Virus record (IMG/VR): IMGVR_UViG_2859805564_000001
DNA: 64,000 nt
Reading direction: 5' to 3' (one strand)
From: a virus
Taxonomy: Duplodnaviria > Heunggongvirae > Uroviricota > Caudoviricetes
Part shown: in pieces, positions 6,001-9,000 of the stretch
How positions within the stretch are numbered: the first letter of the stretch is position 1
Layout: each line of letters starts with the position of its first letter
Position numbers: made by a program

Positions 6001-9000
6001 CATGTAAATACCGTTGGTGCTTTTTAAGGGCGAGAAATTATTACTTAACTGATTTTTAAAGTGATTTATTTTTTAAGGGGGCAGATAACAGGAGGGGATA
6101 TGCAAAGAAAAACCCGGCGCATGGGCCGGGCTATTTATCTGGTCCTGTTCTCATTCAGTAGAGTAGGGGCCAAGAAATCGCACTCCGTTGAAGTGAATAA
6201 GATGAGAAGGTGCATCAGCCACCCATACCTCTGTTTCCCATGCGATTTCACCAAGATATCGCCCCATGATGGAGCGATTTGGAAAAGCGGTCACATAGAC
6301 AAGTCCGGCTGTTGATCCGGCAAACAGCCTGGCAAGCTCAGCATGCCGCTTCCCATCAACCGGTCCATGACTGGTGACAGACTCAACCAGTAGCAGCCAG
6401 TTTTTCGCAGTAAAATGTAGCACCACATCTGGCATTTTACCGTGTGAATCCACATCAACACCTAGCCCGGCCAGCAGTGGAGCGTCGAAGTAGCCCCACT
6501 TTTCGCCAGTGTCGCCAGCATAGACCAGCACGCTACCCGGAGCAAAACGTGGGGCGAAGTCCTCTATTATGGCACGGATAAGTTCGCTGTGCTCGCCGGG
6601 ACTGAGGGTTATTTGCTGGCCCGCAGCAATTTCAACAGGGATACGATTCTGTTCGCGCTCCTTAGCATAGCGGGTAACCAGCGTTTCACGCTCGGCTAAA
6701 TAGGTTGCAAGGCTATCGTGCCATGCCGGGCTGCCGAAAGTGCGTAGCATGGACAGAGCAGCAGGTTCGATCTGATAAACAGCCTTCGGGCTGTTCACTG
6801 GGCGATCGGGCTTGTCCGGATTGTAGAGGGCTACTCCAGCAGCGCAGAACTGATGCATAGACTGGCGGCGGAATGTCTCACGAGTATTGGGTGCGTAGAC
6901 CTTGCCGTAGTGCTCCCGAACCCAATTCATGATTGGTGTAATGCCCACAAGCGGATTTTCCGCGTCGGCCCATGCTTTTCCCGGTGTGAGGTTCAGGAGT
7001 GCCAGCAAACACAAAGCAGAACGCTCATTCTGCTGCGCTCTGGGCAGGCCTAAGGATGCTATAATTTGCTGAGCGGCCTCAATATAATCATTTTGGTTGT
7101 TCATGCAGTCAGAGCTCCTAGCTTAGCGTCAATATGTTCTTGCGTGAGAGTTTCTTGTTGCATAGCCCACTTGCCAAGCTCTATCAGAGTGTCACGGCTT
7201 GGGTACTTAATCATCTTGAGGTCGGTTGCATTGACCTGTGTATGCCCGTTGAAGCGACGGAAGTACTTATCCACTGCGGTAGTGTTCAGGAACACGGCCA
7301 AGCCACGGGCCAGCGCCTCGGGTAACCCATGTTTGTTCTCATGAAACACGTTCATGTGATTTTCAAATCCCAACACTGAATACTCACTGAAGGTAGCAGG
7401 ATCAACGACGCTTGCTACCACTCGGCGCTTTTCCTCCTTCGACGAGAAACGACGCACCACACAATAAAAACCGTTCGGGTAAAGCCACTTTTCTGTCTCG
7501 TCGTTGCGCATGATTGCGTTGGGTTTCTTCAAACCTTCCACAGGCCAGACAGTGCTACTCATACTCAAATGGCTCGGGTAGATCAGGGGAACAGTTCCTT
7601 CTTCTGGCATGCTGCGCAAATGAGCTTTCAGTCGGAAATCAACTATCGGTCCGGTCGATACCTTCACGCCAATATCAGCCAGCGAACATTGTACGGCAGA
7701 TGATAACTCAATGGTGCTTTTCTCGAGCGTGGTCGGCACATGAATAAACCGCTCCGAATCGTCCGGGTACACAATCTGGTCAAATGGGTGTTCGTAGGTG
7801 ACCAGGTCAAAAAAGCTATCATCGGTCGAAGTTGTGACTGTAACAGCCTCCTGACGGCCTCCACGCTCCAGGCGGATGATAATATTTTCCTGCAACACAT
7901 CGTCATCCCTGAAAGCTTTGCTACGTGATTCGAACAAATGAATATGGCGGATTGCTGCCCGCTCAAGTATGAAATTACGGAACGGACGGTAATACGGTCC
8001 GTTGCAGAAACTACGTGGGATTATGGCCACTATCTGCCCGCCAGGTGCAACCTCACCTACAGCCAGTGCAACAAAGGCGGAATACAGATTTACCGTCTCG
8101 ATACCGACAGTGCGAAGAGCCTGCCGGTGGGCTGACTGGCTATTGATCTTCTTGTAAGGCGGATTAAGTATTGCATGGGTATAACCTCGATCCTGTAGAC
8201 CTTCGGCGGTTGCCAGCTCAATATAATCCCCTTCGATGATGCGGGGCGTCACTCTCCTGTACCCGGTTAAGTGCTTCGCAAGGTGACCACACAGCTTTTT
8301 GTCGATTTCGTAGGCTGTTGCCTCGACAGACTCAAAGCCAAACTCGCCAACCAGCCAACGGTCGAGGAAGGCGCAAGACAGTGCGCCTAAACCAGCGCCT
8401 GCGTCCAGTAGACGGCAAGTTTTCATTGTGCTCGGTGGAAACAAGGAGGCCATAAAACGGGCCACGCCAGAAGGCGTCATGAACTGGCCGAACTCTGCTT
8501 TGTGTTTACGCGCGGTACGGGGAGACAGCTCGCGACGCACGCTGTCTGCGACGTCTAGCTTTTGAAGCATAACTAATCCTCTTTACGTGGCATGATGATG
8601 CCAACGTGCTTTTGACATCCTCCACATTCTTCAGGCGTGAAGGATGTCAAATCACTCTGTGAGCTCAATCAAAAGTCTCATCATTCCACTGCGATTTGAT
8701 GACCTTTCCGACAAACTGGCAGTTTTCGTTACACTCAATCATGTCGAATCGTGGGTTGAGCGGCTCCAGGTACGCTTTACCGCTCTCACGAATGAATCGT
8801 TTGAAGGTAAATTCATCGCCGTTCATTCGGGCCACGCAAAAATCGCCATCCTCGATTTCCCGTTCAGGGTCAACGAGTATCAGCATACCTTCAGGGAAGC
8901 TGGGTTTACCACCCTGCGGTGCGGTCATTGAATGCCCCTTGACCTCCAGCCAGAACGACCTGTCACTGGCTTTTGTGGTGGTGGAGATCCATTTAATCGC

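What the first reader, a model, noticed from the sequence alone, without database searches (positions are those of the whole stretch)
8613..8649. Perfect 9-bp inverted repeat in the short gap between cI and the methyltransferase gene
TGACATCCT/AGGATGTCA with a 19-nt spacer sits in the 94-bp gap between the cI stop and the methyltransferase start. This R-M operon has no controller (C) protein gene, so this element is a candidate attenuator or protein-binding site that sets how much cI read-through reaches the R-M genes.
Basis: seen in the sequence. Interest (0 to 1): 0.45.

Follow-up and report, generated by a model that had tools for sequence, protein, structure and literature searches.

The report
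Transposon-end relic between cI and methylase
The inverted repeat is real, but it is not a purpose-built switch for the restriction-modification genes: it is the outer stem of a 41-bp palindrome left by an IS609-type (IS200/IS605 family) insertion sequence, and it sits exactly at the seam where the restriction-modification cargo joins the phage repressor module.

Summary
The 9-bp repeat is at the stated coordinates. It extends to 11 perfect bp and to a 15-bp stem (8611-8651). Nine-bp arms alone are at chance level; the full stem is not.

It is one copy of a roughly 42-nt palindrome family: invariant outer stem TTTGACATCCT/AGGATGTCAAA, covarying inner stem, T-rich tetraloop. I found this family in 17 distant species genomes, 60 metagenome contigs and 3,335 plasmid records.

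The right three-quarters of the palindrome match the right end of IS200/IS605 elements: a TnpA-binding hairpin plus a 10-nt tail ending in TCAA. This was shown on six IS copies of an Arsenophonus plasmid and on E. coli IS609 (insQ). The left arm is the complement of that tail, so both strands end in ...GGATGTCAA.

In the window both module boundaries fall right after TCAA. Uninterrupted homologues carry TTAC (plasmid resolvase-M-R cassette) or TTGAT/TTAAT (hairpin-less cI relatives) at those points. These are known or near-known IS200/IS605 target motifs.

The same palindrome precedes other cargo in sister prophages. It is absent from plasmid copies of this R-M system.

It can still fold as a stem-loop without a U-tract on the cI-M-R transcript, so an incidental RNA effect is possible but untested.

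Verdict: a transposon relic at a cargo junction; a new variant of a known kind.

The parts
8611..8651 (.). 41-bp palindrome, a 'double right-end' relic of an IS609-type IS200/IS605 element.
   Evidence: CM 43 bits; right-end identity
8641..8651 (+). Outer arm AGGATGTCAAA. On the + strand this is the 10-nt right-end tail ending in TCAA (8647-8650) plus one A. The cI-module boundary falls at 8650|8651.
   Evidence: IS608 right-end architecture from PMC3201880
8611..8621 (-). Outer arm. Read on the minus strand it is AGGATGTCAAA, with the tail ending in TCAA (8615-8612). The boundary of the R-M cassette falls at 8612|8611.
8622..8640 (.). Decayed TnpA-binding hairpin (imperfect palindrome) core. 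On the + strand it reads CCACATTC-TTCA-GGCGTGA. The F004 form differs from the IS609 core CCACGTCC-TTCA-GGGCGTGG by three transitions; the window form has an additional 1-nt deletion.
8652..8664 (-). 13-nt spacer after the cI stop codon; the end of the cI module, shared with hairpin-less relatives.
8665..9378 (-). cI repressor gene (237 aa; HTH_3 + Peptidase_S24).
8571..8610 (-). Leader of M. It is homologous to the last ~30 nt of a plasmid serine-recombinase (resolvase) gene plus the Shine-Dalgarno of M, and contains the small hairpin 8588-8603.
7101..8570 (-). Methyltransferase gene (M.EcoGIII type, PstI-like, CTGCAG).
6151..7104 (-). Restriction endonuclease gene (BsuBI/PstI family), overlapping M by 4 nt.
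6111..6132 (-). Intrinsic terminator-like hairpin plus T-run. It is the 3' boundary of the exchangeable cargo slot: homology with L189 resumes at about 6129.

Best explanation
The repeat is the outer stem of a 41-bp palindrome (8611-8651) descended from the right end (RE) of an IS609-like IS200/IS605 insertion sequence. Such an RE is a subterminal hairpin bound by the Y1 transposase TnpA, followed by a 10-nt tail whose last four bases, TCAA, are the cleavage site. Here the 5' side of the hairpin is the exact complement of that tail, so both strands read as an RE ending in ...GGATGTCAA. The palindrome is an independent 39-41-bp module. The cI module ends at 8651, and the resolvase-remnant-M-R cassette starts at 8611. 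Shown: the sequence identity to IS right ends, the exact boundaries, and the canonical or near-canonical target motifs at those boundaries in uninterrupted homologues. Inferred: IS609-like copies inserted just downstream of cI (after TTGAT/TTAAT, RE facing cI) and in the 3' end of the resolvase gene of a plasmid-type resolvase-M-R unit (after TTAC, RE facing M). A rearrangement across or at their palindromic hairpins then removed the IS bodies and fused the R-M genes behind cI, leaving this scar at the head of a cargo slot that ends at the terminator 6132-6111. Functionally it is a relic. On the cI-M-R transcript it still folds into a stem-loop of about -21 kcal/mol without a U-tract. At most it acts incidentally as a barrier to 3' exonucleases or a partial obstacle to read-through. 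It is not a dedicated R-M controller.
For: (1) Family: exact arms with a free interior occur in 17 species genomes of distant phyla and in 60 metagenome contigs, 47 distinct copies in all. The interior, which the search did not constrain, continues the stem. Seven pairs change on both sides (51 cells), with a covariation score of 0.241 against 0.085 in shuffles (0 of 500 reach it), and the signal collapses when partner columns are slid. (2) Abundance: the consensus matches 6,753 places in 3,335 plasmid records. (3) Origin: on Arsenophonus plasmid NZ_CP123757.1, six IS200/IS605 copies end in ...GGAAT-CCTCGCCC-TTTA-GGGCGGGG-AGGATGTCAA|flank, and the flanks diverge right after TCAA. The solitary 42-nt palindrome on the same plasmid has the identical last 33 nt. 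The E. coli K-12 IS609 (insQ) RE is ...GGGAT-CCACGTCC-TTCA-GGGCGTGG-AGGATGTCAA|. Its right arm plus tail is 18/18 identical to the PhiR12_3/L189 phage form, and the F004 form (the window's variant type) differs from the IS609 core by 3 transitions. (4) The architecture matches IS608: TCAA lies 10 nt 3' of the hairpin foot, and activity is strand-specific (PMC3201880). TCAA is the commonest RE motif in IS605 elements (PMC9956272). (5) Boundaries: plasmid cassette homology ends at 8611, and the uninterrupted plasmid reads CCCTTTAC|AAGCACG. Hairpin-less cI relatives read TTGAT|ATCATCC or TTAAT|ATCGCTC at the other foot. TTAC and TTGAT are the IS608 and ISDra2 targets (PMC8612924). (6) The same palindrome heads different cargo: a Rha-like fragment in PhiR12_3 and HicB-like/Panacea genes in L189. 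L189 homology stops at 8611 and resumes at the terminator at about 6129. (7) tnpB genes lie beside copies in 3 of 44 unrelated loci, and L074's left end is homologous to the Arsenophonus IS left end. (8) Strand polarity: where wobble pairs favour one strand, that strand almost always carries the T-rich loop (TTTA/TTCA), as in the IS top strand.
Against: The 4 nt 5' of the inner hairpin foot (TCCT/ATCC) are not the guide tetranucleotide of real right ends (GAAT/GGAT). The palindrome is therefore not a standard TnpA substrate, and its mode of formation is not demonstrated. No intermediate with an intact IS609 next to this cI or this M was found. The recombination-scar route needs two inverted insertions per event, which sits uneasily with the thousands of plasmid copies and with a 41/42-identical copy lying 76-78 nt after brnA genes that are only 32% identical. 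Those observations favour some form of autonomous spread. TTAAT, seen in one relative, is not a documented target. The IS609 copy in K-12 itself abuts TTAT, not TTAC. No expression data were available, so a real regulatory effect of the RNA hairpin cannot be excluded.
Confidence: 0.72

Rival explanations
1. Self-mobile miniature element. The 42-nt palindrome is a single-hairpin, non-autonomous derivative of IS200/IS605 elements (smaller than a PATE) that is moved in trans by TnpA. It inserted by itself between cI and whatever lay downstream, and the cargo changes at its foot are secondary.
For: There are thousands of copies, up to 9 places per plasmid. A 41/42-identical copy lies 76-78 nt after brnA genes that are only 32% identical, with unrelated spacers. 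About 19 of 43 distinct copies lie within 30 nt of a gene's 3' end, and about 10 supply the TGA stop codon from the foot. On the Arsenophonus plasmid the solo copy shares its inner stem with the resident IS.
Against: It has no left end and no guide tetranucleotide, and a single hairpin cannot fill both TnpA binding sites in the way LE and RE do (PMC3201880). No clean filled-versus-empty pair differing only by the 42 nt was found. In L104 the hairpin arrived together with about 130 nt of cargo and replaced a terminator. Copies are single in most loci. The ccdB copy decays in place like a relic.
Confidence: 0.15
2. Evolved RNA regulator. The stem-loop on the cI-M-R transcript is selected to set how much read-through reaches M and R, as a partial terminator, an RNase III site or an mRNA stabiliser for cI.
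For: The stem-loop is stable (-21.3 kcal/mol on the sense strand against -17.1 on the other). The region's z-score is -3.3. It begins 13 nt after the cI stop and ends 41 nt before the M start. There is no promoter-like site for M. The stem is identical across phage variants while the loop varies.
Against: The window's copy has a decayed inner stem compared with PhiR12_3 (-21 against -32 kcal/mol). The element is not linked to R-M genes elsewhere. Its polarity is inverted between phage types. It has no U-tract. It matches no Rfam family. Conservation of the stem is explained by recent common descent: the phage copies are 95-100% identical overall.
Confidence: 0.09
3. Protein-binding operator. 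A dimeric regulator binds the two half-sites to control M/R. Candidates are cI, an HTH domain of the BsuBI/PstI-type endonuclease, or the methyltransferase.
For: The arms are perfectly symmetric and each contains TTGACA. The R protein has an N-terminal HTH domain (PF17728).
Against: Arm spacing differs by 1 bp between variants and the interior stays self-complementary, which points to a hairpin and not to two duplex half-sites. The same arms occur in organisms with no cI, M or R homologue. The arm motif does not recur significantly in the window: 4 matches against 4.5 expected. The arms are accounted for by the IS right-end tail.
Confidence: 0.03
4. Chance inverted repeat with no history or function.
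For: Perfect 9-bp inverted repeats with short spacers are expected several times per 64 kb.
Against: The stem is 15 bp. The CM built from unrelated genomes scores it at E about 4e-9. The family is widespread. Three kinds of homology breakpoint coincide with its feet.
Confidence: 0.01

Closest known systems
Right end (RE) of IS608/IS609-type IS200/IS605 insertion sequences
   Same: A subterminal imperfect-palindrome hairpin with a C-rich 5' arm, a T-rich tetraloop and a G-rich 3' arm. A 10-nt tail follows, ending in the cleavage tetranucleotide TCAA, and flanking DNA begins right after TCAA. The right arm plus tail of the PhiR12_3/L189 form is 18/18 identical to E. coli IS609 (PMC3201880).
   Different: There is no tnpB or omega-RNA region upstream. 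The guide tetranucleotide 5' of the foot is replaced by the complement of the tail, so the tail is base-paired and the element reads as an RE on both strands. There is no partner left end.
PATEs (palindrome-associated transposable elements) and other non-autonomous IS200/IS605 derivatives
   Same: Gene-less derivatives built from IS200/IS605 end sequences, found in bacteria and archaea (PMC10055086; PMC3119063 listed).
   Different: PATEs keep both a left and a right end and are typically hundreds of bp long, often encoding an omega-RNA. This element is 39-42 bp, has one hairpin and has no left end.
REP/BIME elements and their RAYT (TnpA-REP) transposases
   Same: Short extragenic hairpins related to IS200/IS605 ends, often just downstream of genes, which can stabilise upstream mRNA (PMC3333891 and PMC3479197, listed; their roles are from my own knowledge).
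   Different: REPs carry a conserved 5' GTAG, are species-specific and occur in hundreds of chromosomal copies. This family has conserved TTGACATCC/GGATGTCAA feet and low copy number per replicon, and is found across phyla, mainly on plasmids and phages.
Lambda cI-rexA-rexB immunity operon (cargo slot downstream of cI)
   Same: Accessory exclusion or defence genes are co-oriented behind cI, are expressed in the lysogen and are closed by a terminator (my own knowledge of lambda; architecture here).
   Different: Here the cargo is a PstI-like R-M pair, and the head of the slot carries a transposon-end palindrome.
C-protein/C-box control of Type II R-M systems
   Same: Both concern the timing and dosage of M and R expression.
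   Different: There is no C gene, and the repeat is not linked to R-M genes in other replicons.

Membership tests
IS200/IS605 right end (IS608/IS609 type) | Subterminal imperfect-palindrome hairpin of the TnpA-binding type | tested here: met
   The core on the + strand, CCACATTC-TTCA-GGCGTGA, compares with IS609 CCACGTCC-TTCA-GGGCGTGG: 3 transitions in the F004 form, plus a 1-nt deletion in the window. The CM from family members scores 43 bits.
IS200/IS605 right end (IS608/IS609 type) | Cleavage tetranucleotide TCAA 10 nt 3' of the hairpin foot, with flanking DNA starting right after it | tested here: met
   The tail AGGATGTCAA is present on both strands. Module homology breaks at 8612|8611 and at 8650|8651. 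The rule is from PMC3201880.
IS200/IS605 right end (IS608/IS609 type) | Guide tetranucleotide 5' of the hairpin foot that pairs with the cleavage site | tested here: not met
   Real right ends have GGAAT or GGGAT 5' of the foot. The palindrome has CATCCT there, the complement of the tail.
IS200/IS605 right end (IS608/IS609 type) | Lies at the 3' end of an IS, downstream of tnpB/tnpA, with a partner left end | tested here: not met
   The upstream neighbour is cI. There is no tnpA or tnpB in the region, and the CM finds no second copy or partial RE in the window.
IS200/IS605 right end (IS608/IS609 type) | Insertion 3' of a short specific target (TTAC, TTGAT, TTAT...) without target duplication | tested here: met
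   The uninterrupted plasmid reads TTAC|AAGCACG. Hairpin-less cI relatives read TTGAT| or TTAAT| at the other foot. Targets are from PMC8612924. TTAAT is not a documented target.
IS200/IS605 right end (IS608/IS609 type) | Binding and strand-specific cleavage by TnpA | not testable with these tools
   Needs biochemistry or an in vivo excision assay.
PATE / IS200-IS605 MITE | Both a left end and a right end flanking a short non-coding body | tested here: not met
   It has a single hairpin and no LE-type sequence (ATCCGCCGTAAAA... / ...ATATAAGGCG) next to it (searches compared).
REP/BIME | Conserved 5' GTAG plus hairpin, and high chromosomal copy number in one species | tested here: not met
   There is no GTAG. 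There is one copy in the window and single copies in most loci.
Intrinsic (Rho-independent) terminator / attenuator | GC-rich hairpin immediately followed by a U-tract on the transcribed strand | tested here: not met
   The stem is followed by AAAAGCACG on the sense strand, and the scan does not call it.
Integron attC site | R''/R' core RYYYAAC...GTTRRRY, extrahelical bases, length of at least about 55 nt, arrays of cassettes | tested here: not met
   Most copies have GAC/GTC, not AAC/GTT. The stem is perfect with no bulges, the element is 42 nt, and there are no arrays. Only the L189 variant mimics the core.
C-box operator of R-M controller proteins | An adjacent C gene and a C-box upstream of it | tested here: not met
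   There is no C gene. The repeat is found in loci with no R-M genes.
Any curated RNA family (Rfam 15) | A covariance-model match at the gathering score | tested here: not met
   Only a chance-level MIR394 match (E 0.26) covers the site. Nothing was found at the 17 genomic copies.

The most novel reading that the evidence does not exclude
The 39-42-nt 'double right-end' palindromes may be a distinct, previously unnamed class of IS200/IS605 derivatives that propagates or is generated recurrently (by TnpA in trans, or by template switching at TnpA-cleaved ends). They would act as portable seams for cargo exchange: genes of any kind become joined exactly at the TCAA feet. That would account for defence, addiction and other cassettes being swapped behind cI in Stx phages and between modules of IncF-type plasmids, and for many genes acquiring a TGA stop plus a 3' hairpin from the element.
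Probability: 0.3. Interest if true: 0.7.

Novelty: new variant of a known kind. Interest (0 to 1): 0.5.

Why it matters
The result turns an apparent regulatory site into a dated mark of how the O104:H4-type Stx2a phage acquired its PstI-like R-M system (M.EcoGIII). The cassette was cut out of a plasmid-type resolvase-M-R unit at a TTAC site and joined behind cI at an IS609-type transposon end. It also defines a cargo slot in these phages, running from the palindrome to the terminator, that holds R-M, toxin-antitoxin-like or remnant cargo in sister prophages. More broadly, a very short IS200/IS605-derived palindrome is abundant on enterobacterial conjugative plasmids and scattered across bacteria and possibly archaea. 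It often lies at module junctions or supplies stop codons, and it is invisible to gene-based annotation and to Rfam. If these palindromes promote joining, they are an overlooked driver of mosaicism in phages and plasmids. For this locus in practice, mutational studies of cI/R-M expression should treat the hairpin as a transposon relic that may affect RNA only incidentally.

Tried and rejected
1. Decayed PstI site in the loop as a methylation-sensitive switch. The loop reads CTGAAG, and some variants have CTGCAG. CTGAAG/CTTCAG loops occur in unrelated family members and in the IS609 hairpin (TTCA), so the CTGCAG forms are a SNP.

2. Promoter for M using the TTGACA in the arm. There is no acceptable -10 at 16-18 bp, and the scan finds nothing.

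3. Chimeric hairpin produced by a crossover in the loop. I proposed this after comparing the window with PhiR12_3. It is replaced by the simpler finding that the two phage types carry the IS609 core in opposite polarity, each 3 transitions away from it.

4. Integron attC-like site. Rejected on the core sequence, length, lack of bulges and lack of arrays.

5. The hairpin as the 5' boundary signal of cassettes, followed by an ORF start. This is not general: 6 of 82 sides against 8% at random positions.

6. A shared neighbouring gene or mobilising enzyme. None was found within 3.5-5 kb apart from sporadic tnpB and TA genes.

7. Link to the phage rRNA methyltransferase paper PMC10810198. That enzyme is a different gene, an MT-A70 DPPW enzyme (gp5).

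8. Literature searches with the motif strings returned only unrelated primers.

9. I considered resemblance of the arms to 16S rRNA segments and a SECIS-like reading of UGA plus hairpin, and dropped both without a formal test. The IS right-end identity explains the sequence.

10. Palindromic flanks around copies at contig ends (L087, L071) were treated as possible assembly artefacts and not used as evidence.
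Full report
**The observation**

The window is a short-tailed Stx-converting lambdoid phage. It is 100% identical over 6000-9800 to Shigella phage Ss-VASD and 99.9% identical to the O104:H4 phage P13374.

On the minus strand lie three co-oriented genes:
- cI (9378-8665; HTH_3 + Peptidase_S24);
- a 489-aa methyltransferase (8570-7101);
- a BsuBI/PstI-family endonuclease (7104-6151), followed by a terminator-like hairpin at 6132-6111.

The 9-bp arms and the 19-nt spacer are exactly as reported. The repeat extends to 11 perfect bp and to 15 bp with one mismatch (8611-8625 / 8637-8651). On the cI-sense strand that mismatch is a G.U pair.

Perfect 9-bp repeats of this kind are expected by chance in 64 kb. 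Perfect 11-bp arms are not: 0.5 are expected. The hairpin alone folds at -21.3 kcal/mol on the sense strand and -17.1 on the other. No U-tract follows it, and no promoter-like site for M lies in the gap. No Rfam family matches.

**Module boundaries**

Three independent comparisons place homology breakpoints at the two feet of the palindrome.
- Plasmid-borne resolvase-M-R cassettes (about 84% identical; Aeromonas, Pseudomonas, Citrobacter, E. coli and others) match the window only from 6143 to 8611. In them M lies 9 bp after a serine-recombinase gene, so window 8571-8610 is the remnant of that gene's 3' end.
- Prophages with near-identical cI (up to 99.6%) but other downstream genes lack the hairpin and diverge at 8651.
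- PhiR12_3-type prophages keep cI and an intact form of the hairpin but have 160 bp of unrelated phage DNA in place of 6468-8610.

L189 has the identical cI protein, a hairpin variant with a compensatory G:C to A:T change in the outer stem, and HicB-like/Panacea cargo. Its homology with the window stops at 8611 and resumes at about 6129, the terminator.

The palindrome therefore heads an exchangeable cargo slot that the terminator closes. It belongs neither to cI nor to the R-M cassette.

**A widespread family**

I searched for the exact 11-nt arms with a free 13-25-nt interior. This returned 17 species-representative genomes from very distant phyla, where I estimate fewer than one hit by chance, and 60 metagenome contigs. 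Together they give 47 distinct copies.

The typical copy is 42 nt: TTTGACATCCTCCCCnnCCTTTAGGnnGGGGAGGATGTCAAA. The interior, which the search did not constrain, continues the stem. Seven pairs carry double-sided changes (51 cells). The covariation score is 0.241 against 0.085 in shuffles (0 of 500 reach it), and the signal disappears when partner columns are slid.

No M, R or cI homologue lies nearby, and no protein family is shared by the neighbourhoods. Contexts include phage capsid and terminase genes, toxin-antitoxin genes, housekeeping genes and apparently archaeal genes.

About 19 of 43 non-phage copies lie within 30 nt of a gene's 3' end, and about ten supply that gene's TGA stop from the foot TT-TGA-CA. 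A consensus query then matched 6,753 places in 3,335 plasmid records, mostly large conjugative plasmids of Klebsiella, Escherichia and Salmonella, with up to nine places per plasmid.

**Identification**

Arsenophonus plasmid NZ_CP123757.1 carries at least six copies of an IS200/IS605 element (a Y1 tnpA divergent from tnpB). The covariance model hits the inner 22 nt of the hairpin 13 nt after every tnpB stop, and hits one full-length solitary palindrome.

Aligning the six copies shows the right end ...GGAAT-CCTCGCCC-TTTA-GGGCGGGG-AGGATGTCAA|flank. The flanks diverge right after TCAA. The left ends abut ...TTATCAA|. The last 33 nt are identical to the solitary palindrome on the same plasmid.

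This is the IS608 architecture. [quoted passage not shown] TCAA is the commonest right-end motif among IS605-type elements (PMC9956272).

In E. coli, 4,874 of 5,426 complete genomes match positions 13-41 of the phage-type hairpin next to ydcO. In a K-12 strain this is the right end of the insQ/tnpB (IS609) element...GGGAT-CCACGTCC-TTCA-GGGCGTGG-AGGATGTCAA|.

The PhiR12_3/L189 hairpin shares 18/18 nt of right arm plus tail with it. Its core is 3 mismatches from the IS609 top strand on the cI-sense strand. The window/F004-type core is 3 transitions from it on the opposite strand, and the window form has one extra deleted base.

So the finding's arms are the right-end tail and its complement. The palindrome reads as an IS609-type right end on both strands.

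**The junctions fit transposon insertion sites**

On the minus strand the window reads ...GGATGTCAA|AAGCACGTTGG. The uninterrupted plasmid homologue reads ...CCCTTTAC|AAGCACGTCGG.

On the plus strand the window reads ...GGATGTCAA|ATCACTCTGTG. Hairpin-less cI relatives read ...TTGAT|ATCATCCTGTG or ...TTAAT|ATCGCTCTGTG.

TTAC is the insertion target of IS608 and TTGAT that of ISDra2, and insertion occurs 3' of the target without duplication (PMC8612924). Each side of the palindrome therefore looks like the RE|flank joint of a separate IS200/IS605 insertion, one next to cI and one in the end of the resolvase gene that precedes M.

**Most likely history and mechanism (inferred)**

IS609-like copies in inverted relative orientation supplied the two joints. 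A rearrangement at or across their palindromic hairpins then removed the IS bodies and fused the R-M cassette behind cI, leaving a 'double right-end' scar.

Alternative routes to the palindrome are template switching or run-off copying at a TnpA-cleaved end, or true mobility as a single-hairpin miniature element. The data do not decide between them. The large number of plasmid copies, and a 41/42-identical copy lying 76-78 nt after brnA genes only 32% identical, favour some recurrent or autonomous process. The lack of a left end and of the guide tetranucleotide, the absence of clean 42-nt filled/empty pairs and in-place decay of the ccdB-associated copy favour relics.

Plasmids L204 and L205 share one flank up to the palindrome and diverge exactly at its foot. 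Cargo or module junctions at the feet are therefore not peculiar to the phage.

M and R are very probably transcribed by read-through from the cI promoters. They are co-oriented, there is no promoter-like site in the gap, and CTGCAG is fully methylated in lysogens carrying this system (PMC6602927; strain 95NR1 is hit H156).

The palindrome will fold on that transcript, and it could incidentally protect the cI segment from 3' exonucleases or hinder read-through. Several points indicate that it did not evolve as a controller of the R-M genes:
- its origin in a transposon end;
- its presence ahead of other cargo;
- its absence from the same R-M system elsewhere;
- its inverted polarity between phage types;
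- its partly decayed inner stem in the R-M-carrying phages;
- the 1-nt variation in arm spacing between variants.

**Comparison with known elements and novelty**

The closest known entities are IS608/IS609 right ends (the same hairpin, tail and TCAA), PATEs (which keep both ends and are much longer) and REP/BIME elements (GTAG motif, high copy number, species-specific).

The element fails membership as a functional right end because it has no guide, no IS body and no left end. It also fails as a PATE, REP, attC site, terminator or C-box.

I found no description of such double right-end palindromes in the searchable literature. That is weak evidence of novelty, because much of the literature on insertion sequences is not in that library.

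I rate it a new variant of a known kind. The original finding is explained as a transposon relic at a cargo junction, with moderate interest because of what it shows about how this medically important phage acquired its R-M system, and because the family is widespread and unannotated.

Noticed in passing
window 5500-5638 (minus strand): Rfam isrK Hfq-binding sRNA match (5563-5638, 61.8 bits, E 6.6e-12) and a partial C4 antisense RNA match (5500-5537, below the gathering score). Both lie just upstream of the Rha/Ash-type antirepressor ORF 5533-4748.
   Followed up: no
window 34412-34452: A 14-bp perfect inverted repeat (AGACGCAGACGTT.. / ..AACGTCTGCGTCT) with a 13-nt spacer. It is the only other perfect repeat of at least 11 bp with a short spacer in the window.
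   Followed up: no
window 8588-8603: Small hairpin TGGCATGATGATGCCA followed by a T-run on the + strand. It scores as terminator-like for transcription antisense to M, and lies inside the remnant of the serine-recombinase gene 3' end.
   Followed up: partly
L014, L015, L051, L077, L088, L186, L188 (position equivalent to window ~8630): A SNP variant of the hairpin loop (GCCTGCAGAAT) creates a true CTGCAG site, the recognition sequence of the adjacent R-M system, in the palindrome just upstream of M. The window has CTGAAG.
   Followed up: partly
L187 (GCA_050920445.1) 4309-5783: In one genome the methyltransferase gene is split into two ORFs (161 and 265 aa) while the endonuclease gene looks intact, which is unexpected for an active R-M pair.
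   Followed up: no
L208 (E. coli K-12 NCM3722) 545-2229, and 4,874 of 5,426 E. coli genomes: The IS609 remnant (a tnpA pseudogene plus insQ/tnpB) next to ydcO is nearly universal in E. coli. The annotated ydcO ORF ends inside the IS right-end tail.
   Followed up: partly
L203 2501-2542; L211 13154-13195; L204/L205 ~2500-2541: On IncF-type Klebsiella and E. coli plasmids the palindrome supplies the ccdB stop codon. It is intact in one plasmid and decayed in another. Upstream of fecI, two plasmids share one flank and diverge exactly at the palindrome's foot.
   Followed up: partly
L087 19-60 and 1254-1295: An HTH_17-antitoxin/PIN-toxin pair is bracketed by two palindrome copies, and both flanking ORFs end with similar ...DDG(H/Y)GL peptides and take their stop codon from a palindrome foot. 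The flank of the first copy is itself palindromic to the contig end, which may be an assembly artefact.
   Followed up: partly
L104 2123-2300 versus L105-L113: In a relative of this phage group, the intrinsic terminator after the major capsid gene is replaced by a palindrome copy plus a ~40-nt leader and a 27-aa ORF. The start of that leader (GCACGTT) and its Shine-Dalgarno (TAAAGAGGA) resemble window 8609-8577.
   Followed up: partly
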